Part shown: positions 47,635-63,825 of the stretch, one piece after another
How the letters are laid out: each line of letters begins with the position of its first letter
How positions within the stretch are numbered: position 1 is the first letter of the stretch
Assembly: GCA_964544275.1 (NCBI GenBank)
Contig: CAZIZX010000005.1
Span: forward strand, 4,720 to 68,719
Direction of reading: 5' to 3'
Source: an uncultured Gammaproteobacteria bacterium
GTDB lineage: Bacteria; Patescibacteriota; Microgenomatia; UBA12405
DNA length: 64,000 bases
Position numbers and translations under genes: made by a program
Notes under the pieces: generated by a model
The model's input: the letters and a program-made list of their open reading frames with translations, nothing else
Told to the model about the DNA's origin: nothing
Databases searched by the model: none

Positions 47635-49617
47635 ATGAAGAAAAGAAATAGTTGGCAGGAGAAGATACAAAAGTTTTTTTTGGGTGAGGTTGATAATAAG
47701 AAAAAAGAGCCAAAAAAAAATGACGATTTGGGTTTGCCCAAGGAAATAATGGATAGGTTACCCAAAGGGACAAAGATCAAGAAAGTTAAGGTTGGTCCGG
47801 CTCAAATTTTGAGGTTTTTGGTGTATTTGGTTTTGGGGTTTTGGTTACTGTCGAGCTTGAGACAGATGTTTGTATCAGAGGAAATGGTGCAGGTGCCTTT
47901 GTCGAGAGTGATTGAAACCATAAAAAACGAGGAGGCTAGTAAGGTGACGGTAATGGATGATGAAATTTTGGTGGAATTGAAGGAAGGGGGGACGGTGCTG
48001 ATGGCTTCAAAGGAACCAGGTTCATCAATGACGGAGATCCTGCAAAGAGAAAATATAGATATTTCAAATATTGAGTTTGAAATTGAAAACAGGCGGGGCT
48101 GGAAGCTGATAGGAGATATTTTTAGCTTATTGTTGACAGTGGGATTACCTTTGTTGTTCATTATCTGGTTTCTGGGCAGACAGACAGGTGGGTCGGGTGG
48201 CGGGATGTTTGGTTTTGGTAAATCGACGGCTAAGTTATTTGTGAAGGGTAAGCAGAACTTAAGCTTTAAAGATGTGGCCGGGGTGACTGAAGCAAAAAAT
48301 GATTTGGAGGAAATTGTTGATTTTTTGAAACATCCGGAAAAGTATAAAAAAGTGGGAGCAAGGGCTCCTAAAGGAGTGCTTTTGGTGGGCCCAGCGGGGG
48401 TAGGAAAGACGCTTTTGGCCAAAGCGGTGGCAGGGGAGGCAGATGTGCCGTTTTATTCAATGGCGGGCTCTGAGTTCATGGAGATGTTGGTGGGAGTAGG
48501 GGCGAGTAGAGTAAGGGATTTATTCGGGACGGCCAAAAAAGCAGGGAAGGCAATTATTTTTATTGATGAGATTGATGCTATCGGTAGAATGAGAGGAGGG
48601 CTAGATGGAGGTCACGGTGAAAGAGAGCAGACTTTGAACCAAATATTGGTAGAGATGGATGGTTTTGAGGCTAATACAGCAGTGGTGGTGTTGGCGGCTA
48701 CTAACAGAGGTGATTTGTTAGATCCAGCTTTGTTGAGGCCAGGCAGATTTGATCGAAGAGTAATTTTGGAAATGCCGGATATTGAAGCTCGGAAGGAGAT
48801 TATTAAAATTCATGCTAAAGGTAAGCCTTTTGATGAGACAGTAAATTGGGAGGCAGTGGCCAGGAGAACGGTGGGGTTTTCGGGAGCAGATCTGGAAAAT
48901 ATGTTGAATGAAGCGGCAATATCGGCGGCCAGGCAAAATAATACCAAGATATTTATGGCGGATATTGAAGATGCGGCTTTGAAGGTAAAATTGGGAGCAG
49001 AAAAGAGAAGGCAACAGAGCGAGGAGGACAGGTTGATGACGGCTTATCATGAAGCAGGGCATGCAATGGTAAATTATGTTGAAGATTTGGATCCGGTACA
49101 CCGAATTTCAATAGTATCTCGAGGAATGGCATTGGGCTATACACTAATACCGCCAAAGAAAGACAGGGTACATGAGACCAAACAGAGACTGATAAAGCAA
49201 ATGGCGATGGCGATGGGAGGAAGGGCGGCCGAGGAACTGGTATTTGGAGACATTACTACCGGAGCGGCTTCGGATATATCGCATGCAACCAAAATTGCCA
49301 GAGATATGGTAGTGGAGTGGGGAATGTCGGACTTGGGGCCAGTAAATTATGGGCCGCAGGTTGACGTGAATGATTTTGGTAAGGCATATCTGGAACCGTC
49401 AAAAATTTCCGACATGATGATGTCGAGAGTGGACGAAGAAATTAAAAAATTAGTGGGAACCGCTTTGGATGAGGCAAGGAGAGTGTTGAAAGAAAACCGA
49501 GCCAGTTTGGATGAAATTGCCAAAGTGCTGGTGGAGAAAGAGAGCCTGGATGAAGAGGAGTTTGAAGCTTTGGTAAAAAAGGGAAAGAAGAAGGGCGGCA
49601 AAGACTTACAGGCTTGA
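47635..49617 (+). CDS. ftsH: ATP-dependent zinc metalloprotease FtsH
   Basis: Walker A GPAGVGKT, second region of homology, HEAGHAM zinc motif, two N-terminal TM helices. Confidence 0.9.
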   Translation: MKKRNSWQEKIQKFFLGEVDNKKKEPKKNDDLGLPKEIMDRLPKGTKIKKVKVGPAQILRFLVYLVLGFWLLSSLRQMFVSEEMVQVPLSRVIETIKNEEASKVTVMDDEILVELKEGGTVLMASKEPGSSMTEILQRENIDISNIEFEIENRRGWKLIGDIFSLLLTVGLPLLFIIWFLGRQTGGSGGGMFGFGKSTAKLFVKGKQNLSFKDVAGVTEAKNDLEEIVDFLKHPEKYKKVGARAPKGVLLVGPAGVGKTLLAKAVAGEADVPFYSMAGSEFMEMLVGVGASRVRDLFGTAKKAGKAIIFIDEIDAIGRMRGGLDGGHGEREQTLNQILVEMDGFEANTAVVVLAATNRGDLLDPALLRPGRFDRRVILEMPDIEARKEIIKIHAKGKPFDETVNWEAVARRTVGFSGADLENMLNEAAISAARQNNTKIFMADIEDAALKVKLGAEKRRQQSEEDRLMTAYHEAGHAMVNYVEDLDPVHRISIVSRGMALGYTLIPPKKDRVHETKQRLIKQMAMAMGGRAAEELVFGDITTGAASDISHATKIARDMVVEWGMSDLGPVNYGPQVDVNDFGKAYLEPSKISDMMMSRVDEEIKKLVGTALDEARRVLKENRASLDEIAKVLVEKESLDEEEFEALVKKGKKKGGKDLQA

Positions 49618-51309
49618 TTCTTCCAAGTTAATAATGCGCTGAAGAATAGCTAGGGAGGCCAAATAGACGGGTTCAACGCCGTTGAGTGAAAGGCTGTGAG
49701 AACCGAGATTTTTAGCTTTGGAGTAGGGGGTGTCGGAAGTATAGTTGAGGATACCGATATCAAAGGGAGCACTGTTGAGGTCGACAACGGTATCTTTGGG
49801 GGTTTGTTGGTCATAGGTGGCTTCGGTGACGGCGCTAAGAAAAGGGCCGGATTCCATCTCGATAACGGTGAGGTTATTTTCAGAATATTTTTGGAGAAGG
49901 GCTTCATTTTCTAGAAAAGTACCCAGGACCGAGACGGCTTTTTGGTGAGTAAGGATGGAACCCTGGTGGTTGGAAAAAGGAAAGAAAGAATTAAAACAAT
50001 TATTGAACATGTAGGTGTTTTGGGTGTGTTCGTCAAAAACAACGCGAGGGATTTGGATGTCACCAATTTCACTGTTGAGAACAGCGGCTTTGCCTAAAAT
50101 GTAAACGCCTTTGATTTGGTGAACGTTTTCAAGAATTTCATTTAAAATGTGGTAAGCCGAGAAGCCCAGCGGGTAGTTGATGTTGAAAATAAGAGCGTTT
50201 GAACGTTGGAGTGTTTGTCTTTTGGTAATTTTGAGGCGGGAGTCAAGGTGACGGGATTGAGCCAGATTTTTCAGCGGGAAAATTTGGGTATTAATATCTA
50301 AATAATGAGCACTGGGGATGGAGAGTGACTTTAGCTGGGATTGGAGTTTTTGGAATAAAATTTGGTTGGAGGTGGACTGGAGATAGAACTTGGAAGCGTA
50401 ATAAAGGAAGTCATTGGGATGGAGAAAATTTTCGCGGGCTTGAATTTGCTGCCAGGTTTGATATAAGTCGGGATGGTTTGGTCGGATGAGTTTGATAATG
50501 TCTTTTTGGTTTTGGATGGCGAAACCAGTGATTAAGTTAAGCAGGCTATGGGAGTTGCTGGAAACAAAATAAATTTTTTGGCGGGATATATGAAAAGTGT
50601 TGGAGGTGGTGGCGGCAATATTTTTCCACCAGCGCTGGGTAGCTTTGGTATAGTCAATCCAGGAACCGGCGAGAAGCTGAAGGCGAAGATTGGCTTTACG
50701 GTTATAAATGCGCTTGAGACGGATTTTCCAGTTGGTTCCCAGGGCGGTAATCAGGCGTTGCCAGTCATCGGCAGAAATGTTTAAGGAGAGGTGGAGGGTT
50801 TGGTTTTTGAGGGCGGTGGCTACTTTGTCGTAGGTTTTGAATTTAGAGGTGATCAGCTGGTGAAATTTGTTCCATTCATGTTGGTAGGCGATAAGTAAAT
50901 TGACAAGGTCGTCAACGTCGGAAATGGAGCTGGCAAAACAGGCGAGAACACCAGAAGTTTGGTTGAAATGCATGGAGCGGCGGCGGGCAGGTGAGATGAC
51001 ACGGAGCCAGGAAGTAACGTTAGGGTAGCCGGCTTTGGTAAAAACTTCGGGAGTTTGGCCGATAATTAATTTTTGGGTCAGGTCGATAACCAGAGGCAGA
51101 CGAAAAACGGAATAAATAAGAGCGGAGGTGTCGATAATATTGGGATCGGAGCCGTAGGGATGAAGGATGGGTTCCATCTTGAGGTGAGTGTTGGTGAGGG
51201 AGTTGACGGTGAGTTCAAGAGTGCTTTGGAGAGCGGAGCGATAGGTGCGTAAATGGAGATCAATAGATTCGATGGTCGGAGGCATGTAAAAATTATAGCG
51301 TAAAGTCAA
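49606..51309 (-). CDS. Hypothetical protein with C-terminal PNP_UDP_1 (nucleoside phosphorylase/nucleosidase) fold; AMP-nucleosidase-like architecture
   Basis: C-terminal GVYILGKAAVLNS...TVIEMESGPFLSAV resembles the EMES region of the PNP/UDP family. N-terminal ~300 aa unrecognised. Confidence 0.4.
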   Translation of the reverse strand: MTLRYNFYMPPTIESIDLHLRTYRSALQSTLELTVNSLTNTHLKMEPILHPYGSDPNIIDTSALIYSVFRLPLVIDLTQKLIIGQTPEVFTKAGYPNVTSWLRVISPARRRSMHFNQTSGVLACFASSISDVDDLVNLLIAYQHEWNKFHQLITSKFKTYDKVATALKNQTLHLSLNISADDWQRLITALGTNWKIRLKRIYNRKANLRLQLLAGSWIDYTKATQRWWKNIAATTSNTFHISRQKIYFVSSNSHSLLNLITGFAIQNQKDIIKLIRPNHPDLYQTWQQIQARENFLHPNDFLYYASKFYLQSTSNQILFQKLQSQLKSLSIPSAHYLDINTQIFPLKNLAQSRHLDSRLKITKRQTLQRSNALIFNINYPLGFSAYHILNEILENVHQIKGVYILGKAAVLNSEIGDIQIPRVVFDEHTQNTYMFNNCFNSFFPFSNHQGSILTHQKAVSVLGTFLENEALLQKYSENNLTVIEMESGPFLSAVTEATYDQQTPKDTVVDLNSAPFDIGILNYTSDTPYSKAKNLGSHSLSLNGVEPVYLASLAILQRIINLEESSL

Positions 51310-55366: not shown

Positions 55367-57940
55367 TTAATTGTTGTGACAGGCAGTAGGATTACTGGCT
55401 TGAATGCCAAGGACTGTTTTGTAATAGGTAGGATGATAGGCAGGACCGTAACGGTAGACTCCAAGTTCGATACTGCCCCAGCGGCTTATGAGTCCGGCCA
55501 AAAGAGAAGTGCCGTATTTGATGTTGAATTCGGGATGGAGAAGTTGGGCGGTGGTGGGGCGATCGGTAAAAAAGTGATCGAATTGATTGGTTTTGGTGTT
55601 ATCTTTGGGCATGATCTGCATCAATCCGACAGCTCCCTGAAAAGATATGGCATCAGGTTTGCCGCCGCTTTCGACGGTAATTAGAGCGGCAATGAGAGCA
55701 GGGTCAAGATTGTTTTCGAGAGAATATTTTCGAATCAAAGGGCACCATTGTTGGACGTTTTCGGCTACAGTGCCGGGAATGAATTCATAATCGCCGGGAA
55801 GATCCGGTCGTTGGAAGGAATCAATTGTACCAAGTTTTTCATGCCAGGATTCGGGATAGAGATAGGAGGTAAAGGCGTCGCGAAGTTTTTCGTTGCGGTT
55901 GCCTAAGTGGACAGTATCGTTTTTGTTGGTGGTGGATGAAAAAGGTTGATCTTTTATGTACTTGCCAGTATCTTCGGGGATAAAATATGAAAGAGCGGTG
56001 TCGTCTTTCTGGACGCCTTGGGCATACTGGGTGTCAAAGTATATTCTTTTGGTTAGATCAGCCCTTTCAGAGCGACTGAAGACGAGTCCTGTCCGGACTT
56101 CTTCGACAAAGATGTCCCAAATTTTGTCAACATTTTTAACTATTTTGCCGAATTGTAAAGGATTGGGTCGGTCACGGGCTGAATCCTGAGCAAGGGTGTT
56201 ACAGATATTTGACTCTAGAAGTTCTTGGGTGTCGGGCAGGAGGTTGTTGACGGCATTATTGTTGGGATAGACAGCAGCTAGAGGAATGGCTTGTTTTTGA
56301 GTGCTGTTGGGGTTGTCGGTGTTGTCATTTAGGATAATGTGCTTGGTGTCATATGAGCCGGTATCAACAATTTTTAGGGCTTCGAAGATTTTTTGGTAAC
56401 AATTATCATCTAATTGGGTGAATGTCTGGTTTTTCTTTGAAGTATAGGTTGAGCTGTATTGAGAGATAAAGCCCTGCTGAAAAGCGTGGATTTCACTTAA
56501 GAAGACAGGTCGACAAGTTAGGCCTTCAGGTTTCTGACAGTTGACACTAAAACATTGGGAGCCACAGCCCCAGGCAACTTGTTCGTCAATGGTGGTTCCG
56601 TGGTACTTGTTTTCTTCCGTTAAGGAACGGTAGGCTTCGGAAAGACGCTGTTCCTTTATTTTAATTTGGCTTTGGTAGGAGGTGCTTTTGAGAGCGGCAC
56701 CAACTCCGTCGGAATCATAGGATTTGAAAGAGGTATTTTTTACTTCTGAAGGGGCATTTATTTCAACGGGAAACTCTTTGGTCCAGTGGATTTGGGCTTT
56801 GCGGGTGGAATGATTGGTTAGATATTCGGAAGATAATACTTCCTGCTCAACCCGGTTGATAAATCTTTTGATAGTTTGGCCAATATCGGAAAGTAGGGGG
56901 ATGTAAGTGAAAGTTTCTTCGATGGAGATAGTTTTCTCGCAATAGGTATTGTCACTGATGTCAATATTGTTAGGAATGTTGTCCGGGTGTTTATTTTCGA
57001 TATTTTGGGCATTAGAGATGGGGGGGGAGAGATTGTTGGTGGTGACAATGACGGGAGGAAAGTCATGAATGGTGGATAAGTTACAGACAGCAGATTCACA
57101 AGTGACATTGGTGCAATCGTTTTTAAGGGCTCGAGCAACCTGGTGGTTGCTAAATTTCCAGGAGCCGCCATCGGGTTCGACGGTAAACATGAAATAGGCA
57201 ATAATGTTGCTGTCTTGTTGCCAGGTTTGAGTAATTTTTTGGTCACAAAAAAATTGAATAAATTTACAATCATCGTAAACCGGAGTTCCGGAATCACCGT
57301 TAGCAAGAACGCCAACCTCGGTGAGGATAAACTTTTTGCCGGGAAAAAGGGAAGAATATTGCCGAGCTTTGGCTGGGCCATAGGCGTGATAAGAAATAAT
57401 ATCAAAGTTGCCAAAGGCAGCTTGAGTGGCAGGGAAATTGTGGTGGTGAGGGTCAAGACCGGGGGAGATAACGGTAAAGTTTTTGTCGGGACAGGATTGG
57501 AGGTAGTTAATAAAGTTTTGAGCCCGATCAATAGCCTCATTGAGGGAAAGATTTAACCTTTCCCGTTCATGTTCGAGTTCATTGAAGGGTTCGACGTAAA
57601 CGGTTTTGCCGGTAGAAAATGACTTGATGGAATTGCACCAGCGAGTGGCAATTTCCTGTTGTTGGGCAGGAGTGCCTAACATTTTGGGGGCAACAGCATT
57701 TTCCCAGTGGGAGTGAAGACGTAAAACGACGTTGGATGCTGAGATGTTAGAAATATTTTCAGGAGAAGGCGGAGCATAAAAAAGCCAATTTTTGAGGCTG
57801 GGGTCGGTGACGATATTAATATTTCCAGGTTGGTTGATAAGATTAATACCAGGTGAGGCTGAAAAAACAGGGGAAATAGCAGAGAAAAGGTAAAACAAGG
57901 TGGTGAAGAATAAAATAGGTCTGAAACAATGTTGAACCAC
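55367..57940 (-). CDS. Large secreted protein with C-terminal lytic transglycosylase (SLT) domain, VirB1-like
   Basis: Signal peptide; C-terminal ALIAALITVESGGKPDAISFQGAVGLMQIMP is the SLT ES...GLMQ signature. Confidence 0.65.
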   Translation of the reverse strand: MVQHCFRPILFFTTLFYLFSAISPVFSASPGINLINQPGNINIVTDPSLKNWLFYAPPSPENISNISASNVVLRLHSHWENAVAPKMLGTPAQQQEIATRWCNSIKSFSTGKTVYVEPFNELEHERERLNLSLNEAIDRAQNFINYLQSCPDKNFTVISPGLDPHHHNFPATQAAFGNFDIISYHAYGPAKARQYSSLFPGKKFILTEVGVLANGDSGTPVYDDCKFIQFFCDQKITQTWQQDSNIIAYFMFTVEPDGGSWKFSNHQVARALKNDCTNVTCESAVCNLSTIHDFPPVIVTTNNLSPPISNAQNIENKHPDNIPNNIDISDNTYCEKTISIEETFTYIPLLSDIGQTIKRFINRVEQEVLSSEYLTNHSTRKAQIHWTKEFPVEINAPSEVKNTSFKSYDSDGVGAALKSTSYQSQIKIKEQRLSEAYRSLTEENKYHGTTIDEQVAWGCGSQCFSVNCQKPEGLTCRPVFLSEIHAFQQGFISQYSSTYTSKKNQTFTQLDDNCYQKIFEALKIVDTGSYDTKHIILNDNTDNPNSTQKQAIPLAAVYPNNNAVNNLLPDTQELLESNICNTLAQDSARDRPNPLQFGKIVKNVDKIWDIFVEEVRTGLVFSRSERADLTKRIYFDTQYAQGVQKDDTALSYFIPEDTGKYIKDQPFSSTTNKNDTVHLGNRNEKLRDAFTSYLYPESWHEKLGTIDSFQRPDLPGDYEFIPGTVAENVQQWCPLIRKYSLENNLDPALIAALITVESGGKPDAISFQGAVGLMQIMPKDNTKTNQFDHFFTDRPTTAQLLHPEFNIKYGTSLLAGLISRWGSIELGVYRYGPAYHPTYYKTVLGIQASNPTACHNN

Positions 57941-57978: not shown

Positions 57979-58365
57979 TTAGCCGGGGATTCTGAACTGA
58001 AGTATGGATAAATCCAGCCCGGTGAAATTGGCGATAAGTCTGAGGATGAGCCAGGAAATGATAATACCAGCCACGCCAAGTATGGCCATGGTAAGGCTGG
58101 ATGAGACTTGGGCGGTTTTTTTTGGGTCGCCGCTGGAAGTAAGATATTGGAAGCCATTAGTTATCAGAACCACAAAAAAAACTAGGCCAACCAGAAAGAC
58201 GATAGCTTGAAGAATATTAAAGAATAAACATTCAAGTCCTTGGATGGTAGCGACACCATCAACAACACAACGATTATCGATTTGGTTCCAGTCTTGTTGA
58301 GCAAAAGCAGCAGGAGGATTAAATAGGGTAATAAAAAATGGCAGTGCCAAGGCCTTCTTGAGCAT
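57979..58365 (-). CDS. VirB2/TrbC-like pilin paralog 1
   Basis: Start set at internal ATG (MLKKALALPFF...); leader ending AAFAQQ; hydrophobic-TSSGDPKK-hydrophobic core. Confidence 0.55.
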   Translation of the reverse strand: MLKKALALPFFITLFNPPAAFAQQDWNQIDNRCVVDGVATIQGLECLFFNILQAIVFLVGLVFFVVLITNGFQYLTSSGDPKKTAQVSSSLTMAILGVAGIIISWLILRLIANFTGLDLSILQFRIPG

Positions 58366-58391
58366 AAATGGATTATACAATAATTTAAAGC

Positions 58392-58416
58392 AAAACCCCG
58401 ACTTTAGTCGGGGTTT
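58392..58416 (-). terminator. Intrinsic-terminator-like hairpin between pilin paralogs 2 and 1
   Basis: Minus-strand transcript reads AACCCCGAC-UAAAG-UCGGGGUU followed by UUUUGC: 9-bp GC-rich stem plus U tract, 22 nt after the paralog 2 stop. Confidence 0.45.
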
Positions 58417-58438
58417 AAGGTTTACGATAGAAGTGAAA

Positions 58439-58819
58439 TTATGGTTGAAGGGTTGGTATTTCGAGAGTGAGGATGTTGATGCCGAAGATGACATTGATAA
58501 GCTGGACGATGGCCCAAGCGGCAAAAATAATAGCCAGACCGATAAGAGCACTGGTAATTTGGGCGCGGGCCGAAGCGACTTTCTTTTCGTCACCTTCGGA
58601 AGTAACCCACTTAATGCCGCCCCAGATAAGCATGAAGAAAAAGAGCAGGGCAGCGACCAGCATGATCAAGCTGATCAGTCCGGAAACTAAGCTGGCGGGG
58701 GTGATATTTCGAAGGACATTAAAGGTGCTGCTATCTTTGGGTCTGAGATCTATTTGCTGGGCGTAGGCGGGAGCGACCAGAGAGAAATATTTGACTTTAT
58801 TTGTTATTTGTTTGATCAT
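58439..58819 (-). CDS. VirB2/TrbC-like pilin paralog 2
   Basis: PAYAQQ leader end; core WVTSEGDEKKVASARAQITSALIGLAIIF. Confidence 0.55.
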   Translation of the reverse strand: MIKQITNKVKYFSLVAPAYAQQIDLRPKDSSTFNVLRNITPASLVSGLISLIMLVAALLFFFMLIWGGIKWVTSEGDEKKVASARAQITSALIGLAIIFAAWAIVQLINVIFGINILTLEIPTLQP

Positions 58820-58899
58820 TTTGTTGATTTAATGGTTAATTTGTAAGTAATTAGTTTATTTTAGCAGTTAGTTTTTTAAAATGGAAGGATTGCTTGTTT

Positions 58900-59259
58900 T
58901 TAGAGAGTGGGCCAGGGAATTGACAGGGCTTCCAGGCCTTGGATACCAGTAATTGTACCGATTAATTTGAGGATGACAAAAATAGAAAAGATTAAGATTA
59001 AGCCGACAAAAGCATAAGTGATAGAAGTGCGTCCGGATTCTATCTTTTTGGGATCACCCTCAGAGGTAATGAAGTGGAAAGCTCCAAGTGAAAAGAAGAT
59101 GATAAACATGAGGACGGCAATTATGAAGAGTATGGAAAAACCAGTCTGGAGCAGGTTGTTGAAATATCCTTGTGGATTAGTTACTTGGTTAGCAGCGCTG
59201 CAGTTTGGATTGAGGGCGGGGTTACAGATTTGGGCGAGAGCGGGTTTGACGATTGACAT
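58900..59259 (-). CDS. VirB2/TrbC-like pilin paralog 3
   Basis: PALAQ near the N-terminus; core FITSEGDPKKIESGRTSITYAFVGLILIF. Confidence 0.55.
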   Translation of the reverse strand: MSIVKPALAQICNPALNPNCSAANQVTNPQGYFNNLLQTGFSILFIIAVLMFIIFFSLGAFHFITSEGDPKKIESGRTSITYAFVGLILIFSIFVILKLIGTITGIQGLEALSIPWPTL

Positions 59260-59260
59260 G

Positions 59261-59602
59261 TTATTTAAATAGAGGTGAACTGGTAAGATTGAGGATGCCG
59301 GGCATACCTAAGATAGTAGCAATAAGCGAGGCCAGGGCGACGGCGACGACAACGATAATGAGCCCCATGATGCCGTAAGTGAGAGATTTTCTGGCGGAAT
59401 CGACTTTGGCCTTGTCGCCTTCGGAAGAAATAAAATTATAGCCGGCAATAATGATTTGAAAGATAAAGTAGATGACGGCAGCTACAGTGAGTAAGCCAAT
59501 AACCGTGCTGATTAGGTTTTGGAGAGTGGTGACAGAGTCAGCACCGGGCTGGAGGCCAAAGGGATTTTTCAATGTTTGAGCGTAAGCTGGTTTGATAATC
59601 AT
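59261..59602 (-). CDS. VirB2/TrbC-like pilin paralog 4
   Basis: PAYAQ near the N-terminus; core FISSEGDKAKVDSARKSLTYGIMGLIIVV. Confidence 0.55.
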   Translation of the reverse strand: MIIKPAYAQTLKNPFGLQPGADSVTTLQNLISTVIGLLTVAAVIYFIFQIIIAGYNFISSEGDKAKVDSARKSLTYGIMGLIIVVVAVALASLIATILGMPGILNLTSSPLFK

Positions 59603-59922
59603 TATTGTGGTCCCAAAATTCTGGGATTAAGGATGTCAATATTTAATATGCGGCCAACGACGGAAGCGATAAGGAAAGCAGAAGCGATAATTCCGAGACC
59701 GATAATGCTTTGGATGAGTCGGGAGGTAGCCTGTTCAACTTTTTTGGGGTCGCCGCTGGCTGAAAGAAGAGAGAAGCCGGACATGATAATCTGGAAAACA
59801 AAAAAGATAGCAGCGACAGTGGTAATGAGAATAAAAAAACGGTTGAGTAGGGTAAAAAGAGGAGAATCGCCGGTTGTTTCTATTTGGACCGGTGGTTTGA
59901 TTTGGCCGATAATGTCGCCCAT
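59602..59922 (-). CDS. VirB2/TrbC-like pilin paralog 5
   Basis: Core LLSASGDPKKVEQATSRLIQSIIGLGIIA. Confidence 0.55.
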   Translation of the reverse strand: MGDIIGQIKPPVQIETTGDSPLFTLLNRFFILITTVAAIFFVFQIIMSGFSLLSASGDPKKVEQATSRLIQSIIGLGIIASAFLIASVVGRILNIDILNPRILGPQ

Positions 59923-59925
59923 GGT

Positions 59926-60246
59926 TTAGTTGGTATTATTGAAAATTGTAACTCCGGTGACCATTTCGATAACTTGAACGATAAAAAAGGCAGAAACAAC
60001 GATCACTAGCCCGATAACGGCATTGGTAACAGCTTGTTTGCCGGTTTCAGTCTTTTTGGCATCATTACTGCCTGCGCCAATTATAAGCTGAAGACCGCCA
60101 AAAATCAAAAGACCAAGGAAAATTATGCCAGCCAGAGAAATAATATTTTTTAAGAGAACATTGACAAGAACGCCAAGATTAGGGAAGGTGTTTTCAAGAG
60201 TACGGCCGGAACCTAGAGGTAATTGCCCAATATTAACTTGAATCAT
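59926..60246 (-). CDS. VirB2/TrbC-like pilin paralog 6 (first gene of operon)
   Basis: Start set at internal ATG (MIQVNIGQLPLGS); core LIIGAGSNDAKKTETGKQAVTNAVIGLVIVV. Confidence 0.5.
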   Translation of the reverse strand: MIQVNIGQLPLGSGRTLENTFPNLGVLVNVLLKNIISLAGIIFLGLLIFGGLQLIIGAGSNDAKKTETGKQAVTNAVIGLVIVVSAFFIVQVIEMVTGVTIFNNTN

Positions 60247-60398
60247 TTTAATGGAAATTATACTATGTATATATAGGAATTTGTAGGAGCGCTTGGTAGA
60301 AAATTGACAAATAGATTTATTTGGCTGAAGATTCCGTATATATGATGATATAATACGCCACAAAGAAAAGGTTAATAATTAATATAAATCCCAAAAGA

Positions 60399-61310
60399 AT
60401 GAGAAAAAATATAATTATTACAATATGGGTGATGGCGGGAATGGTCTGGCTGTCGGGTTTGGGCAGTAAGGTGTTGGCGGTGACTGAGGTACCGGAGGCA
60501 AGTGTGAGCGCTGAGACGGAAGAAGCCAGTGTGAGCGCGACCCCAATTCCAACTGAGGTTAAACCAAAAGAGAACATAACCGAACCAAGTAGTCCGGAAG
60601 TTAAGTATCGATTAGAGTCGGTACTAGAGCGGCAGGAGGTTGATGGTTGGAATGGAATAAATAGCTTGAGAAAGGTGGTGAGAGTGGCTATCGACAGGGG
60701 TGTTTCGGCTAATACGATAGTTTTGCTGTTGTTATTGCCATTGGTGGCAACATTGGTATCGGTGCTACATTACGTGTTTGGCTTATCCGGTTACGGGATA
60801 TTTACGCCAACGATGTTGGCGGTGACGTTTCTGGCAACGGGAATTTTGGGAGGTTTGCTGTTATTTGCTTTGATTTTGGCGATATCATTGGTGGGCAATA
60901 TGATACTTAAAAAGTTAAGGTTGCACTTTTGGCCGTCGAGGTCGATTAATTTGGCATTTATTGCTTTTGGGACTTTTGGGTTGATGTTTGTGTCGTCTTT
61001 TATGCCGTTTGTAGACATCAGCAATATATCCATATTCCCAATATTGTTTATGATATTGCTGGCGGAAGAATTTGTGAGAACACAATTGGTCAAGAGCCGG
61101 GACGAGGCGATGAAATTGACTTTGGGGACGCTGGTGCTGGCGATTGGCGGAGCAGTAACCATGAGTTTCCGATGGGCGCAGGAGATGGTGTTGTTGAACC
61201 CAGAAATTACAATACTTCTGGTAATAGTGATTAACCTTTTGGTGGGGAGTTACACCGGAATCAGACTGTTGGAAATAAGTAGATTTAAAAAAGCGATTAG
61301 AGAAAAGTAA
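60399..61310 (+). CDS. Seven-TM membrane protein with ~100-aa N-terminal extracytoplasmic region (7TM partner of ATP-grasp amidoligase systems)
   Basis: Signal peptide, acidic/Pro-rich stretch, then 7 hydrophobic helices. Immediately upstream of two ATP-grasp genes. Confidence 0.5.
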   Translation: MRKNIIITIWVMAGMVWLSGLGSKVLAVTEVPEASVSAETEEASVSATPIPTEVKPKENITEPSSPEVKYRLESVLERQEVDGWNGINSLRKVVRVAIDRGVSANTIVLLLLLPLVATLVSVLHYVFGLSGYGIFTPTMLAVTFLATGILGGLLLFALILAISLVGNMILKKLRLHFWPSRSINLAFIAFGTFGLMFVSSFMPFVDISNISIFPILFMILLAEEFVRTQLVKSRDEAMKLTLGTLVLAIGGAVTMSFRWAQEMVLLNPEITILLVIVINLLVGSYTGIRLLEISRFKKAIREK

Positions 61311-61325
61311 ATTTTTGATAAATTT

Positions 61326-62648
61326 ATGATTAAATTAGGCGCTTATAAACAATTTCTGACCAAAAACGACAGGAATAAGGTGTATTTGCGGAAGAACGGA
61401 GTGAGTGGCAGGGCTATTGCCGACAGCAAGTATAAGACCAAAAGCAGGTTGGCCAGGGCGGGGGTGATGGTACCAAAATTGATTGCCAGATTTAGAGATG
61501 AGGAAGAGTTGAACAATTTCCGATGGGAGGATTTAGAGGGTAATTTTGTGATAAAACCGGTGTCGGGTTATGGAGGGGAAGGAATTATTATTATCCGAAG
61601 AAGGGGCAAATGGGCAGGTGAGTGGCAGAAGATGAACGGTGAGGTTATTAGCACGCAGGAGATTAATCTTCATTGTCGGGAAATATTGGCGGGACGTTAC
61701 AGTCTGCATGGGATACCGGATAACGTGCTGGTGGAAGAGAGAATCAAGATTCATCCAAAGTTTTTGTCTTTGACCAAATCGGGAACACCGGATATCAGAG
61801 TAATTGTGTACAATAAAATCCCGGTAATGGCGATGTTTAGGATACCAACAGAGAAGAGCGGAGGAAAGGCAAATTTGCAACAGGGAGCGATGGGGCTGGG
61901 GATTGACTTGGCGACGGGAATTACAACTTACGGAGTGGAAGGGAAGGGAGATTTGGTGACCAGGATTTATGACTACAAGAAGAAAAAAAGGATAAAGGTA
62001 AACGGGATAAAAATCCCCTGGTGGAAAGAAATATTGGAAACAGCGGTAAATTGTCAGAAGGCGATTCCGTCTTTGGGATTCTTGGGGGTGGATATTGTTC
62101 TGGATAAAGAAAAAGGGCCGGTGGTGCTGGAAGTGAATGCCAGACCGGGCCTGTCGATTCAAATCTGCAACAAGGCGGGCCTGAAAAACAGAATGGACAA
62201 GGTGGAAGGGTTGGAAGTGAGGAGTATTAACCACGCTACGACTTTGGCCAAATATTTGTTTGGGGAAAGTTTTTTTGAGAAGGTGGAGGAAAAGGAAAAA
62301 GACAAAATAAGGACAGTTAAGCCATTGGAAACGGTGAAGGTGAAAATCGGCAAAGGGAAGAAGAACGTAGTTGAAGTATTGGCTAAAATTGATACAGGAG
62401 CTTTTCGAAGTTCGATTGACAGGAGCTTGGCATTGAAGCATGGGTTGCTGGGTGAAGATAAGGTTTTATATTATCGGCACTACAGGAACAGTATGGGATC
62501 AGGAGTGAGGAGGCCGGTGGTGGAATTGACTTTTTGGTTGCAAGGTAAAAGAATTACGTCGGCCATTAATGTGGCGGATAGGAAGAAATTAAGAGCAAAA
62601 TTCTTGATTGGAAGGAGAGATTTACAGGATTTTGTGGTAAAAACTTGA
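61326..62648 (+). CDS. ATP-grasp ligase (alpha-L-glutamate-ligase-related / ATPgrasp_ST type) fused to C-terminal retropepsin-like aspartic peptidase domain
   Basis: FVIKPVSGYGGEGIIII, DIRVIVYNKIPVMAMFRIP and GVDIVLDKEKGPVVLEVNARPGLS form the ATP-grasp. The C-terminus carries VKIGKGKKNVVEVLAKIDTGAFRSSID (D-T-G-A), as in the Zn_protease/PF05618-type proteins found next to RimK. Confidence 0.6.
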   Translation: MIKLGAYKQFLTKNDRNKVYLRKNGVSGRAIADSKYKTKSRLARAGVMVPKLIARFRDEEELNNFRWEDLEGNFVIKPVSGYGGEGIIIIRRRGKWAGEWQKMNGEVISTQEINLHCREILAGRYSLHGIPDNVLVEERIKIHPKFLSLTKSGTPDIRVIVYNKIPVMAMFRIPTEKSGGKANLQQGAMGLGIDLATGITTYGVEGKGDLVTRIYDYKKKKRIKVNGIKIPWWKEILETAVNCQKAIPSLGFLGVDIVLDKEKGPVVLEVNARPGLSIQICNKAGLKNRMDKVEGLEVRSINHATTLAKYLFGESFFEKVEEKEKDKIRTVKPLETVKVKIGKGKKNVVEVLAKIDTGAFRSSIDRSLALKHGLLGEDKVLYYRHYRNSMGSGVRRPVVELTFWLQGKRITSAINVADRKKLRAKFLIGRRDLQDFVVKT

Positions 62649-62649
62649 T

Positions 62650-63537
62650 ATGAAAAAGATCGGAGTGTTTTTTGGCGGAAAGTTAAATTCAAAAGTAGAA
62701 GCACTTAAACTGGCGGCGGAGAGGCAGGGGGTGAGCTTAGATTTAATTAATTACAAACAGGTTGGCTATAGAGTTTCGGGGGATAGAGTGAAGATTGAGC
62801 TGGGGAAGGGAAGGAAGCTGGCTGACTATGGAGTGATATTTTTCCGGACAGCGAAAAATCATTGGGAAAAAATTGGAGTGATTGTTGACGCTATTGACGA
62901 CAAGACAGTAGTGGTGGACCCGATTGTAAAAACGGGAAGGCCAACAGATATCTGCAAGGTGTATCAAGTGAAAACTTTGGCGAAAAACGGGCTGTCAGTA
63001 CCCAAAACTGTAATGGGAGATTTGCATTGGCTTCGGTTAAGAGCGGACAAATTGTTTAAATATCCAATGATCCTGAAGGGAAGTCAGGGAGACAGGAGGT
63101 CGCAGGTGTTTAAATTTTATAGTAATGCCGATTGGGATAAGCGATGGGAAAATTGTGTTTTAAGGGTAAAAAATGAAGGACAGATATATATGTTGCAAGA
63201 ATACGTGGAAAATATTGAAGATTATCGAGTAATGGTAGTAGGGAAGAAGGTTTTGGGAGTGATGAAGAGGGCGGTTGGAGAAAATAGCCAACTTAAGAAT
63301 GTGTTTACGAAGACAGAGTTACCTGAAAAAGATTTAGAGTTGGCGGCGAGGGCGGCGAGGGCCTGTGGAATTGAAATAGCCGGGGTGGACATGGTTTATA
63401 GGAAGGAAAGCGAAACACCTATGTTCTGGGAAGTAAACAAAACGCCAAATTATTCCCGGTTTATGGAAGTAACCGGGATAGATGTGCCAGGGGAAATAGT
63501 TTCACATTTAGCGGCATATTTGAAAAAGAACAAATAG
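62650..63537 (+). CDS. rimK: RimK-family ATP-grasp alpha-L-glutamate ligase
   Basis: 295 aa; MILKGSQGDRRSQV, YMLQEYVENIEDYRVMVVGKKVLG, EIAGVDMVYRKESETPMFWEVN. Start is 2 nt after the previous stop. Confidence 0.7.
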   Translation: MKKIGVFFGGKLNSKVEALKLAAERQGVSLDLINYKQVGYRVSGDRVKIELGKGRKLADYGVIFFRTAKNHWEKIGVIVDAIDDKTVVVDPIVKTGRPTDICKVYQVKTLAKNGLSVPKTVMGDLHWLRLRADKLFKYPMILKGSQGDRRSQVFKFYSNADWDKRWENCVLRVKNEGQIYMLQEYVENIEDYRVMVVGKKVLGVMKRAVGENSQLKNVFTKTELPEKDLELAARAARACGIEIAGVDMVYRKESETPMFWEVNKTPNYSRFMEVTGIDVPGEIVSHLAAYLKKNK

Positions 63538-63583: not shown

Positions 63584-63657
63584 GGGCAATTAGCTCAGTT
63601 GGTTAGAGCACCGTCCTGATAAGACGGGGGTCGGAGATTCGAGTTCTCCATTGCCCA
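63584..63657 (+). tRNA. tRNA-Ile (anticodon GAT)
   Basis: 74-nt cloverleaf: acceptor GGGCAAT/ATTGCCC, D-arm GCTCAGTTGGTTAGAGC, anticodon stem CCGTC/GACGG with loop CTGATAA, T-arm GGAGATTCGAGTTCTCC, discriminator A. Confidence 0.85.
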
Positions 63658-63825
63658 CACTCGAGTTGTAATCTAGAATTAATCAATAAATGAAATGAAA
63701 AAATGGAATTTTTTTCGAGTGGTGGGTTTGACAGCTGCCTTGGCACTGATTGTGTTTGGGAGTGTGGATAATGTATGGAGGACGATCAAGTTGGGTTTAA
63801 GAAGTTTAAGGAATATCTAGGTTGT

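What the first reader, a model, noticed from the sequence alone, without database searches (positions are those of the whole stretch)
60399..63537. Three-gene predicted peptide-amidoligase system: 7TM protein, ATP-grasp fused to retropepsin-like DTGA domain, RimK-like ATP-grasp
A 7-helix membrane protein with an extracytoplasmic N-terminal segment is followed with a 15-nt spacer by an ATP-grasp enzyme whose C-terminal ~120 aa contain K-I-D-T-G-A-F, the retropepsin-type motif of the PF05618 family that is known only from RimK neighbourhoods. Then, with a 2-nt spacer, comes a bona fide RimK-type glutamate ligase. Comparative-genomics work has predicted such 7TM/ATP-grasp ensembles to add and trim amino-acid tails (for example poly-Glu) on a protein or peptide substrate, but none has been characterised biochemically. 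Its presence in a minimal genome next to the pilin operon and a tRNA gene is intriguing. Candidate substrates include the pilins or ribosomal protein S6.
Basis: partly seen in the sequence, partly recalled or inferred. Interest (0 to 1): 0.7.

Follow-up and report, generated by a model that had tools for sequence, protein, structure and literature searches.

The report
Compact Rlo-type glutamate ligase–protease membrane module
Three adjacent genes in a tiny-genome (Patescibacteria) bacterium encode a membrane protein, a peptide-bond-forming enzyme fused to a small HIV-protease-like cutter, and a second such ligase; together they are a compressed version of the recently described bacterial "Rlo/Rim" system that adds and trims glutamate chains, whose real target is still unknown.

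Summary
Genes at 60399-61310 (A), 61326-62648 (B) and 62650-63537 (C) encode a signal-anchored 7TM protein (Pfam 7TM_transglut), an ATPgrasp_ST/TIGR02291-type ligase with a C-terminal retropepsin domain (DTGA at residues 356-359), and a RimK/LysX-family ligase.

A plus B correspond to the three proteins of the Pseudomonas rloABC operon (characterised in 2025), compressed into two genes:
- the 7TM half of RloB, without its transglutaminase-like ectodomain;
- RloC;
- an RloA/RimB-type protease, here cytoplasmic and fused behind the ligase.

ATP-grasp catalytic residues and the protease's DTG and polyglutamate-binding K/R/R residues are conserved in 39 close and 75 distant homologues.

The A-B pair is the conserved core across Patescibacteria. 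A lies directly upstream of B in all close loci with enough flank and in 69 of 72 dereplicated distant loci. Zero to four extra ligases follow.

The neighbouring six-gene pilin array, like the tRNA, is conserved only in the window's own clade. Pilins are therefore not supported as substrates. S6 could not be tested.

Most likely this is a membrane-docked ligase/protease pair that builds and trims alpha-glutamate chains for an envelope-related target. It is a new variant of a known kind, of moderate interest.

The parts
60247..60398 (.). Divergent intergenic region between the first pilin gene and gene A. It contains an extended -10-like TGATATAAT at 60346-60354 (+), 44 nt upstream of A's ATG.
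   Evidence: Read from the sequence. The pattern occurs 3 times in the window, and a second copy lies just upstream of the ftsH-like gene at 47635. Its role as a promoter is inferred; the generic promoter scan was uninformative.
60399..61310 (+). Gene A: a 303-aa membrane protein, the RloB-like 7TM module without the transglutaminase-like ectodomain.
   Evidence: PF14402, 2e-22 (residues 108-298). NF052267 RloB matches only profile positions 312-507 of 508. 26% identity (2e-15) to residues 311-501 of a Legionella 'inactive transglutaminase family protein'.
60399..60707 (+). A residues 1-103: a signal-like hydrophobic segment (1-27) plus a short acidic extracytoplasmic linker. This part is poorly conserved, except for a WNG.N motif in close relatives.
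   Evidence: Hydropathy and charge analysis; alignment of 110 A homologues. Distant homologues lack this region (about 215 aa in total) or carry a PKD domain instead.
60708..61262 (+). A residues 104-288: seven transmembrane segments.
   Evidence: Pfam 7TM_transglut.
61245..61289 (+). A residues 283-297: a conserved cytoplasmic C-terminal motif, G-x-x-x-G-x-R-x-x-E-x-x-R-F. It is a candidate docking site for the ligase (inferred).
   Evidence: Conserved in close and distant A homologues and in the Legionella RloB-like protein.
61326..62648 (+). Gene B: a 440-aa fusion of an RloC-type ATP-grasp ligase and a RimB/RloA-type retropepsin domain. It has no signal peptide or TM segment, so it is cytoplasmic.
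61377..62207 (+). B residues 18-294: the ATP-grasp ligase domain (ATPgrasp_ST / TIGR02291 type).
   Evidence: PF14397, 215 bits. TIGR02291, 264.5 bits (cutoff 314.2). 39% identity over the full length of a Legionella 'alpha-L-glutamate ligase-like protein'. K77, D256, E269 and N271 are invariant in 39 close and 75 distant homologues. The closest folds are ArgX/LysX, Ddl, RimK and cyanophycin synthetase.
62265..62306 (+). B residues 314-327: a Glu/Lys-rich flexible linker.
   Evidence: pLDDT below 50 in the full-length model.
62310..62645 (+). B residues 329-440: the retropepsin-like aspartic peptidase domain.
   Evidence: Domain model pLDDT 94.9. Foldseek top hits are RloA2 9g59, Lpg0085 2pma and RloA 9g58, then Ddi1, HTLV and HIV proteases. 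The profile matches 9g59 at 6e-13.
62391..62402 (+). The catalytic D356-T357-G358-A359 motif. Its partners K354, R396 and R419 correspond to the polyglutamate-coordinating K46, R114 and R137 of P. aeruginosa RloA.
   Evidence: Invariant in alignment A1. Among 75 distant homologues, D and G are kept in 75, T/S in 75, and R396 and R419 in 73 each. The residue roles come from PMC12239564. The mapping rests on the hmmsearch alignment and on the identical 23-residue R-R spacing.
62650..63537 (+). Gene C: a 295-aa RimK/LysX/MptN-family ATP-grasp ligase (the 'C1' paralogue). It is an accessory ligase.
   Evidence: PF08443, 61 bits. TIGR00768, 95.9 bits (cutoff 143.4); MptN 78 bits; LysX 65 bits. Best PDB sequence match is T. 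thermophilus LysX, then RimK. It shows about 42% identity to the first and about 23% to the second of the two paralogues in relatives. No significant similarity to B.
57979..60246 (-). A divergently transcribed array of six VirB2-like T4SS_pilin paralogues. It is a conserved neighbour only in the window's clade, so whether it belongs to the system is doubtful.
   Evidence: PF18895 hits for all six. The six are positional orthologues in 70-86 related loci. The array is absent next to A-B in 74 of 76 distant groups.
63584..63658 (+). tRNA-Ile(GAT), a conserved downstream neighbour in the clade. It serves as a synteny marker and is not part of the system.

Best explanation
A and B form a two-gene, Patescibacteria-type version of the Rlo system, and C is an accessory ligase.

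Proposed mechanism:
- B is a cytoplasmic ATP-dependent ligase of the RloC (RimK-related) type. It forms alpha-peptide bonds, most probably adding L-glutamate, either as a tail on an acceptor or as free poly-alpha-glutamate.
- B's own C-terminal retropepsin domain acts as a dimer. It cuts runs of glutamate, limiting chain length or releasing product, and may stimulate the ligase as RimB does for RimK.
- A is the membrane partner. Its conserved cytoplasmic C-terminal motif would dock B at the membrane. Its 7TM bundle would either pass the product to the outside or present a membrane- or envelope-bound acceptor.
- C, and the second paralogue present in most relatives, primes or extends the chain.

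Shown here:
- the domain identities;
- intact catalytic and polyGlu-binding residues;
- the retropepsin fold;
- A-B coupling across Patescibacteria.

Inferred:
- glutamate as the amino acid added;
- the A-B physical contact;
- export or an envelope target.

The envelope inference rests on the Pseudomonas phenotypes. Loss of the Rlo proteases causes hypo-osmotic lethality, shape defects and beta-lactam sensitivity, and deleting rloB or rloC suppresses these effects.
For: Family assignment:
- Pfam and NCBIfam hits.
- B residues 10-319 are 39% identical (3e-69) to the ligase of a canonical retropepsin / TGase-7TM / ATP-grasp locus on a Legionella plasmid. A's 7TM region is 26% identical (2e-15) to the C-terminal half of that locus's membrane protein.

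Protease domain:
- Model pLDDT 94.9, with top structural matches RloA2, Lpg0085 and RloA.
- DTG(A), the h-h-G-R-[RD] motif, and K354/R396/R419 (equivalent to RloA K46/R114/R137, which bind polyGlu and are needed for activity) are conserved in 39 close and 75 distant homologues.

Ligase: K77, D256, E269 and N271 are invariant.

Coupling:
- A lies immediately upstream of B, on the same strand, in all close loci with enough flank and in 69 of 72 dereplicated distant groups.
- The wider neighbourhood differs between clades.

Published function of homologues:
- RimB and RloA cleave polyGlu; RimB stimulates poly-alpha-Glu synthesis by RimK.
- Delta-rloB or delta-rloC suppresses the delta-rloA1-3 phenotypes.
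Against: - No substrate or product is known, even for the Pseudomonas system.
- The amino acid added by RloC-type ligases has never been determined.
- In Pseudomonas the protease is periplasmic, whereas here it is cytoplasmic, so the order of events (trim after export versus trim before export) cannot be the same.
- TIGR02291 scores below its trusted cutoff (264.5 vs 314.2).
- A lacks the transglutaminase-like domain that defines RloB.
- The number of extra ligases varies from 0 to 4, and some are of a different ATP-grasp type. This fits stepwise assembly of a mixed peptide as well as it fits a homopolymer.
Confidence: 0.5

Rival explanations
1. Cell-wall peptide chemistry. The ligases add amino acids to a peptidoglycan precursor (stem peptide or cross-bridge) or to another lipid-linked envelope precursor held by the 7TM protein, and the protease edits the result.
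For: - A class A PBP gene follows the ligase genes on the same strand in 18 of 76 distant groups, and lies upstream in another arrangement (L087).
- Individual loci also carry Ddl, a Mur ligase, Alr, MurJ, MurB, LysM-M23 or LytR nearby.
- The window's clade has SLT, SpoIID and GH18 genes around the block.
- The Pseudomonas rlo phenotypes (shape, hypo-osmotic lysis, beta-lactam sensitivity) point to the cell wall.
- The variable number of ligases (0-4) suits stepwise peptide assembly.
- From my own knowledge: ATP-grasp enzymes that build cross-bridges exist, for example the Enterococcus D-aspartate ligase.
Against: - PBP adjacency belongs to one synteny class (yebC-ruvC-A-B-K-PBP) and may simply be inherited gene order.
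- I did not measure the background frequency of wall genes in these small genomes.
- The conserved K/R/R residues of the protease argue for runs of acidic residues, which are not a known feature of stem peptides.
Confidence: 0.2
2. Classical Rim function. [quoted passage not shown] The 7TM protein only regulates or localises the enzymes.
For: - C belongs to the RimK/LysX family.
- The protease domain keeps RimB-like polyGlu-binding residues and is cytoplasmic like RimB.
- In 19 of 76 distant groups the operon abuts the L11-L1-L10-L7/L12 genes, in two orientations.
Against: - C misses the RimK equivalog cutoff by a wide margin (40 vs 331 bits).
- L7/L12 in those loci ends in the ordinary ...VELK, and the single CPR S6 recovered ends ...KRRGD with no C-terminal Glu.
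- There is no S6 gene in the window.
- The near-obligate pairing with a 7TM protein has no counterpart in Rim systems.
- The two orientations relative to the ribosomal genes are explained by one local inversion.
Confidence: 0.1
3. Pilin maturation. The module modifies the six VirB2-like pilins encoded divergently next to it, for example at their conserved cytoplasmic G-D-x-K-K loop.
For: - The block of six pilins facing A-B-C is present in every related locus with enough flank (77 loci), with a short shared intergenic region (median 124 bp).
- The six paralogues are positional orthologues.
- Genes beyond the pilins differ between relatives.
Against: - Only 2 of 76 distant groups carrying A-B have pilin genes within 10 kb, and these are not adjacent.
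- The tRNA-Ile downstream is equally conserved in the clade, so much of the conservation reflects shared ancestry.
- No pilin ends in Glu or carries an acidic run.
- Pilin termini are extracytoplasmic, whereas the enzymes are cytoplasmic.
Confidence: 0.07
4. Cofactor or carrier-protein chemistry. C works like MptN or CofF (glutamate tails on cofactors), or like LysX/ArgX (amino-group carrier protein pathway).
For: C scores 78 bits on MptN, 65 on LysX and 42 on CofF. LysX is its best PDB sequence match.
Against: - All scores are far below the equivalog cutoffs (350, 276 and 300).
- There is no LysW-like small ORF in the locus.
- The partner genes (7TM protein, polyGlu-type protease) do not fit these pathways.
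- From my own knowledge: Patescibacteria generally lack these biosynthetic pathways.
Confidence: 0.03

Closest known systems
rloABC operon of Pseudomonas aeruginosa (RloA secreted retropepsin, RloB inactive-transglutaminase/7TM protein, RloC ATP-grasp protein; PMC12239564, 2025)
   Same: - The same three protein modules lie in one operon.
- B's ligase is of the RloC type (PF14397/TIGR02291) and is 39% identical to a proteobacterial homologue.
- A's 7TM bundle and C-terminal motif align with the C-terminal half of RloB.
- The protease domain's best structural matches are RloA2 and RloA, and it keeps their polyGlu-binding K/R/R residues.
   Different: - The protease has no signal peptide and is fused behind the ligase, so it is cytoplasmic rather than periplasmic.
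- A lacks the transglutaminase-like ectodomain.
- One or more RimK-like ligases are added.
- The host is Patescibacteria, whereas RloB was reported as 96% proteobacterial.
RimK/RimB(/RimA) ribosomal S6 glutamylation module of Pseudomonas (PMC4741518, PMC7343187, PMC11957791)
   Same: - A cytoplasmic retropepsin-type protease is paired with ATP-grasp ligase(s).
- The logic is add-and-trim.
- C is in the RimK Pfam family.
   Different: - The ligase fused to the protease is RloC-type, not RimK-type.
- There is an obligate 7TM partner.
- There is no RimA.
- C is not a RimK equivalog.
- An S6 target is not supported.
RimBK hybrid (Desulfotalea psychrophila DP2392; PMC11957791)
   Same: A single polypeptide combines a RimB-like protease with an ATP-grasp ligase. 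The hybrid's protease was shown to be active on polyglutamylated S6.
   Different: - The domain order is reversed: protease then ligase in RimBK, ligase then protease here.
- The ligase subfamily differs (RimK vs RloC type).
- RimBK has no 7TM partner.
- RimBK occurs mainly in Flavobacteriales and Rhodobacterales.
Predicted 7TM / ATP-grasp amidoligase systems of comparative genomics (Iyer, Abhiman, Burroughs, Aravind 2009, Mol Biosyst; cited from memory and through PMC12096838, because the paper itself was not available)
   Same: The Pfam families 7TM_transglut and ATPgrasp_ST were defined from such neighbourhoods. This locus is an instance of them.
   Different: - The membrane protein here lacks the transglutaminase-like domain.
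- The ligase carries a fused retropepsin.
LysX/ArgX-LysW amino-group carrier system
   Same: C's best match among solved structures, by sequence, is LysX. B's ligase domain has ArgX/LysX as its top fold matches.
   Different: There is no LysW-like carrier gene, no lysine or arginine pathway context, and scores are far below the equivalog cutoffs.

Membership tests
Rlo system (rloABC) | RloC-type cytoplasmic ATP-grasp protein (PF14397 / TIGR02291) | tested here: met
   PF14397 scores 215 bits (cutoff 31.4). TIGR02291 scores 264.5 bits, below its hypothetical-equivalog cutoff of 314.2, so this is family-level membership, not equivalog-level. 39% identity over the full length of the ligase of a canonical Legionella locus.
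Rlo system (rloABC) | RloB: seven transmembrane helices | tested here: met
   PF14402 scores 80 bits (cutoff 25). The alignment covers RloB profile positions 312-507 of 508 and residues 311-501 of the Legionella protein.
Rlo system (rloABC) | RloB: periplasmic inactive transglutaminase domain fused to the 7TM part | tested here: not met
   A has only about 75 non-conserved residues before the first TM segment. There is no match to the N-terminal 311 positions of the RloB model (56 bits vs cutoff 900).
Rlo system (rloABC) | RloA: separate, secreted retropepsin with an N-terminal signal peptide | tested here: not met
   The retropepsin fold and DTG are present. However, the domain is the C-terminal part of a soluble 440-aa protein with no hydrophobic segment.
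Rlo system (rloABC) | The three modules are encoded in one operon | tested here: met
   Spacers are 15 nt and 1 nt, on the same strand. The A-B adjacency is conserved in hundreds of loci.
Rim system (RimK/RimB) | A RimK orthologue (S6-L-glutamate ligase) | tested here: not met
   C: PRK10446 scores 39.9 bits vs cutoff 331, and TIGR00768 scores 95.9 vs 143.4. Only the Pfam domain threshold is passed.
Rim system (RimK/RimB) | A cytoplasmic RimB-type retropepsin with polyGlu-binding basic residues | tested here: met
   There is no signal peptide. K354, R396 and R419 are conserved, and the fold matches. PolyGlu cleavage itself was not testable here.
Rim system (RimK/RimB) | Substrate: ribosomal protein S6 ending in Glu | not testable with these tools
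   There is no S6 gene in the window. The only CPR S6 recovered (L125, a distant clade) ends ...KRRGD.
RimBK hybrid | RimB domain N-terminal to a RimK-type ligase in one chain | tested here: not met
   The order here is ligase then protease, and the ligase is ATPgrasp_ST type. RimBK-like N-terminal fusions exist elsewhere as separate clusters.
Retropepsin-like aspartic peptidases (clan AA) | The D-T/S-G-A active-site motif, the C-terminal hydrophobic-hydrophobic-Gly-Arg motif, and the single-lobe beta fold | tested here: met
   DTGA at residues 356-359 and F-L-I-G-R-R-D at 426-432 are invariant or nearly so. Model pLDDT is 94.9, with Foldseek hits to RloA, Ddi1, HTLV and HIV proteases.
Retropepsin-like aspartic peptidases (clan AA) | Homodimerisation to form the active site | not tested
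ATP-grasp superfamily (B and C) | An ATP-binding Lys and the Mg-binding D...E-x-N residues | tested here: met
   B: K77, D256, E269 and N271 are invariant. C: the GVD...EVN motif is conserved in both paralogue groups. B's fold matches ArgX, LysX, Ddl and RimK.
LysX/ArgX-LysW carrier system | A LysW-like small carrier protein encoded with the ligase | tested here: not met
   There is no such ORF of 40 aa or more in or beside the operon. LysX scores 65 bits vs cutoff 275.6.
Anti-phage defence systems (PADLOC) | A match to any defence-system protein model | tested here: not met
   No hits for A, B or C.

The most novel reading that the evidence does not exclude
In the window's clade, the A-B-C module and the six-paralogue VirB2-like pilin array transcribed divergently from it form one functional unit. 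The cytoplasmic ligases and protease would modify the pilins, for example at their invariant cytoplasmic G-D-x-K-K loop. Alternatively, they would build an anionic glutamate polymer that is delivered to or through the pilus. Either would be a new kind of pilin maturation, in bacteria that depend on this pilus for their host-attached life.
Probability: 0.07. Interest if true: 0.85.

Novelty: new variant of a known kind. Interest (0 to 1): 0.5.

Why it matters
The target of the Rlo system is unknown, although it controls osmotic survival, shape, biofilm formation and antibiotic tolerance in Pseudomonas.

This Patescibacteria form reduces the system to a two-gene core:
- a bare 7TM protein;
- one polypeptide that carries both the ligase and the protease.

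The core is strongly conserved across hundreds of reduced genomes. Three points follow.
1. The 7TM bundle, and not the transglutaminase-like ectodomain, is the indispensable partner of the ligase.
2. A cytoplasmic protease can serve an Rlo-type ligase. This blurs the Rim/Rlo distinction and fits the proposal that Rlo evolved from Rim.
3. The compact pair is easy to express, so one can ask what these ligases make.

It also flags a conserved envelope-related function in bacteria that have discarded most biosynthesis.

Tried and rejected
- A word-indexed homologue search with the protease domain alone returned only 20 fragments of the same fusion family and added little. The exhaustive representative search was more useful.
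- The 2009 comparative-genomics paper that defined these families is not in the library.
- The full-length B model searched against the PDB returned only ATP-grasp hits in the top 50. A separate domain model was needed to test the protease fold.
- The generic promoter/terminator scan showed no clear excess.
- PADLOC gave no hits, so a defence role was dropped.
- A sequence search of A against the PDB found nothing.
- S6 was sought in the window with the E. coli sequence and not found.
- A scan of all window ORFs found no C-terminal Glu-Glu and no run of five or more Glu. The only acidic run is EEEDEEEE inside the 979-aa DUF4012 protein at 44313-47252.
- A 65-aa ORF upstream of the RimK pair in L088 was inspected as a possible carrier or precursor. 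It has no acidic tail and is not conserved.
- L7/L12 was considered as a target because of recurrent adjacency, and rejected on its ordinary C-terminus.
- The Saccharibacteria Tn-seq paper does not mention these genes.

Full report
**1. Observation**

- A: 60399-61310, 303 aa.
- B: 61326-62648, 440 aa.
- C: 62650-63537, 295 aa.

Pfam assigns the three proteins as follows:
- A to 7TM_transglut (PF14402, 2e-22, residues 108-298).
- B to ATPgrasp_ST (PF14397, 1e-63, residues 18-294) plus PF05618 (4e-8, residues 377-434).
- C to the RimK-like ATP-grasp domain (PF08443, 1e-16).

NCBIfam gives these results:
- A matches only the C-terminal 7TM part (positions 312-507 of 508) of the RloB model.
- B matches TIGR02291, 'alpha-L-glutamate ligase-like protein' (264.5 bits, cutoff 314.2), and matches the RloA2 and RloA3 retropepsin models weakly.
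- C matches the generic RimK family model (95.9 bits, cutoff 143.4), MptN (78 bits) and LysX (65 bits).

Further details:
- KIDTGAF lies at B residues 354-360.
- A has a signal-like N-terminal hydrophobic segment, an acidic stretch of about 75 residues, seven hydrophobic segments, and K/R-rich loops consistent with an N-out/C-in topology.
- tRNA-Ile(GAT) follows at 63584-63658.
- Six T4SS_pilin (PF18895) genes are transcribed divergently at 57979-60246.

**2. The protease domain**

The full-length B model (pLDDT 78.9) has an ATP-grasp body, a disordered Glu/Lys-rich linker (residues 314-327) and a beta-rich C-terminal domain. Its best PDB fold matches are ArgX/LysX, Ddl, RimK and cyanophycin synthetase.

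A separate model of residues 325-440 was built on a 75-sequence alignment and reached pLDDT 94.9. Foldseek places it next to the following structures:
- RloA2 (9g59), Lpg0085 (2pma) and RloA (9g58);
- then Ddi1, HTLV, foamy-virus and HIV proteases.

A profile of the domain finds 9g59 at 6e-13.

The mBio paper shows that RloA binds polyglutamate through K46, R114 and R137, and that R114A and R137A abolish function. In the hmmsearch alignment these residues correspond to B's K354, R396 and R419. The R-R spacing is 23 residues in both proteins.

These residues, DTGA, and the F-L-I-G-R-R-D motif (the retropepsin h-h-G-R-[DN] signature) are invariant in 39 close homologues. They are kept in 73-75 of 75 distant ones. 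The ATP-grasp residues K77, D256, E269 and N271 are invariant in all of them. Both activities are therefore under selection.

**3. What it corresponds to**

PMC12239564 describes the P. aeruginosa rloABC operon:
- RloA is a secreted retropepsin that cleaves eight or more consecutive Glu residues in vitro.
- RloB is an inactive transglutaminase fused to 7TM helices.
- RloC is a cytoplasmic ATP-grasp protein.
- Loss of the three RloA paralogues causes hypo-osmotic lethality, shape defects, biofilm defects and antibiotic-sensitivity defects.
- Deleting rloB or rloC suppresses these defects.

PMC11957791 reports the following:
- RimB is a retropepsin-like endopeptidase specific for polyGlu tails.
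- RimB also stimulates poly-alpha-Glu synthesis by RimK.
- A RimB-RimK hybrid, with the protease at the N-terminus, exists and is proteolytically active.

I fetched a canonical proteobacterial locus for direct comparison. It lies on a Legionella adelaidensis plasmid and has the gene order retropepsin, 'inactive transglutaminase family protein' (508 aa), 'alpha-L-glutamate ligase-like protein' (314 aa). The comparisons gave:
- B residues 10-319 align with the whole ligase at 39% identity (3e-69).
- A residues 106-297 align with residues 311-501 of the membrane protein at 26% identity (2e-15), including the C-terminal G-x-R-L-L-E-x-x-R-F motif.
- B and C have no detectable pairwise similarity.

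A plus B therefore equal RloB(7TM part) + RloC + RloA. C is an additional ligase of the RimK/LysX branch, and its closest solved relative by sequence is LysX.

**4. Distribution and the conserved unit**

The window's organism:
- B has more than 120 clusters at 67-90% identity. All named ones are Ca. Shapirobacteria, Woesebacteria or Patescibacteria.
- 342 GTDB species genomes encode a relative.
- The window therefore comes from a Microgenomates-type Patescibacterium.

Close relatives:
- In the 80 best genome loci plus six contig loci, every locus with enough flank has the same block.
- The block is six (5-8) pilin genes on one strand, then A, B, C1 and usually a second RimK-like paralogue C2 on the other.
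- The window's C is the C1 type. C2 is missing in the window and in 12 related loci (11 of the 80 species genomes), including the nearest relative, L007.
- The six pilins are positional orthologues.
- tRNA-Ile also follows the last ligase throughout the clade. Much of this conservation is therefore plain shared synteny.

More distant fusions (35-48% identity) were recovered in three steps:
- an exhaustive search with the protease domain;
- a profile search;
- six contig look-ups and a metagenome scan giving 80 loci.

Unbiased clustering of their neighbours gave 76 dereplicated groups:
- A lies directly upstream of B, on the same strand, in 69 of the 72 groups that have a gene at that position.
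- Additional ATP-grasp ligases follow in 50 of 58 groups with enough downstream sequence. Their number ranges from 0 to 4, and some are of a different ATP-grasp type.

Everything else is lineage-specific:
- One class reads yebC-ruvC-A-B-K(0-3)-PBP1.
- Another has the operon abutting the L11-L1-L10-L7/L12 genes.
- Pilin genes occur within 10 kb in only two groups, and not adjacently.

A's ectodomain is modular:
- It is absent in proteins of about 215 aa.
- It is a short linker in the window.
- It is a PKD domain in L166.
- It is transglutaminase-like in Proteobacteria.

**5. Candidate substrates**

- Pilins: none ends in Glu or carries an acidic run. Their conserved motif is a cytoplasmic G-D-x-K-K loop. 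The adjacency is clade-specific.
- S6: it is not encoded in the window. The single CPR S6 recovered ends ...KRRGD.
- L7/L12: it ends in the ordinary ...VELK.
- No window ORF has a C-terminal Glu-Glu or a run of five or more Glu.

The target therefore remains unknown, as it is for the Pseudomonas system.

**6. Mechanism proposed**

The best-supported reading is a membrane-docked add-and-trim machine:
- B ligates amino acids with ATP, most probably L-Glu. This follows from its family relationship to RimK and from its tight co-evolution with a polyGlu-type protease.
- B's own protease domain, acting as a dimer, limits or releases the chains.
- A tethers the enzyme at the membrane, and either exports the product or presents an envelope-bound acceptor.
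- C and its paralogues prime or extend the chain.

An envelope-related role is inferred from two things:
- the Pseudomonas phenotypes;
- more weakly, the recurrent but lineage-bound wall and surface neighbours (PBP1, SLT, SpoIID, GH18, pilins).

I give this reading 0.5. The main rival, direct modification of a peptidoglycan or lipid-linked precursor, gets 0.2. S6/ribosome modification gets 0.1, pilin modification 0.07 and cofactor or carrier chemistry 0.03.

**7. Novelty and verdict**

The system type is known.

New relative to the literature I could search:
- the ligase-then-protease fusion on an RloC-type ligase, which is the reverse of RimBK;
- the cytoplasmic location of the protease in a system with a 7TM partner;
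- the loss of the transglutaminase-like domain;
- the wide, strongly conserved presence in Patescibacteria.

Two literature checks bear on this:
- The T4SS/pilin-array paper on Patescibacteria does not mention ATP-grasp genes.
- No paper in the library links Patescibacteria with RimK-type systems.

I rate it a new variant of a known kind, with interest 0.5.

Noticed in passing
window 1-64000: There is extreme strand compositional asymmetry. GC skew of the + strand is +0.33 overall (0.2-0.5 in nearly every 2-kb bin), whatever the gene orientation. Third-codon-position GC skew is about +0.3 to +0.67 in + strand genes from about 3.4 kb on (the first gene checked, 1369-3228, is near zero) and -0.3 to -0.75 in - strand genes. 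The first 2 kb differ, with GC 0.48 and skew 0.095.
   Followed up: partly
window 57979-60246 (-) and 55367-57940 (-): Six VirB2-like T4SS_pilin paralogues form an array. Each is a positional orthologue across 70 or more related genomes and carries an invariant loop motif G-D-x-K-K. Downstream of them in the direction of transcription lies an 857-aa protein with a C-terminal SLT lytic transglycosylase domain (VirB1-like?). The conserved number (six) and order suggest a heteromeric fibre rather than antigenic variation.
   Followed up: partly
L007, L010, L013, L086 (relatives); window 63584-63658: tRNA-Ile(GAT) after the operon is followed 1.4-5 kb later by tRNA-Ala(TGC). This is the pair that normally sits in an rRNA spacer, but here the two are separated by protein-coding sequence and no rRNA is in view.
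   Followed up: no
proteins P0148, P0203, P0206, P0211 (representative library): Proteins of about 220-260 aa carry two tandem copies of the RimB/RloA-type retropepsin domain. These are single-chain, two-lobed, pepsin-like arrangements of a bacterial retropepsin.
   Followed up: no
proteins P0188, P0207, P0213, P0220, P0255, P0259-P0261, P0269, P0286: Proteins of about 360-460 aa have an N-terminal signal or anchor, then a RimB/RloA-type retropepsin domain with DTGA, then about 250-300 residues with no similarity to the window's ligases. This appears to be another, uncharacterised secreted architecture of the protease family.
   Followed up: no
L166 8380-10011: This 7TM_transglut protein has an N-terminal PKD domain in place of the transglutaminase-like domain. 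It shows that the ectodomain of this membrane family is exchangeable.
   Followed up: partly
window 49606-51309 (-), 44313-47252 (+), 47635-49617 (+): There is a very strong DUF6909 match (1e-166), a 979-aa DUF4012 protein with an internal EEEDEEEE run, and an FtsH homologue. The FtsH gene is preceded by the same TGATATAAT element that precedes gene A.
   Followed up: no
L008, L012, L014 and other 'binchicken'/SRP loci; L068: Many genome records that carry this typically Patescibacterial locus are titled 'uncultured Gammaproteobacteria bacterium', and one is titled 'Candidatus Methanoperedens sp.'. These are probably placeholder or mis-binned labels.
   Followed up: no
window 61533-62441 (-): A 302-aa antisense ORF lies inside gene B, with a 123-aa one inside gene A. 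Long stop-free antisense frames seem to be a by-product of the skewed composition, not genes.
   Followed up: no
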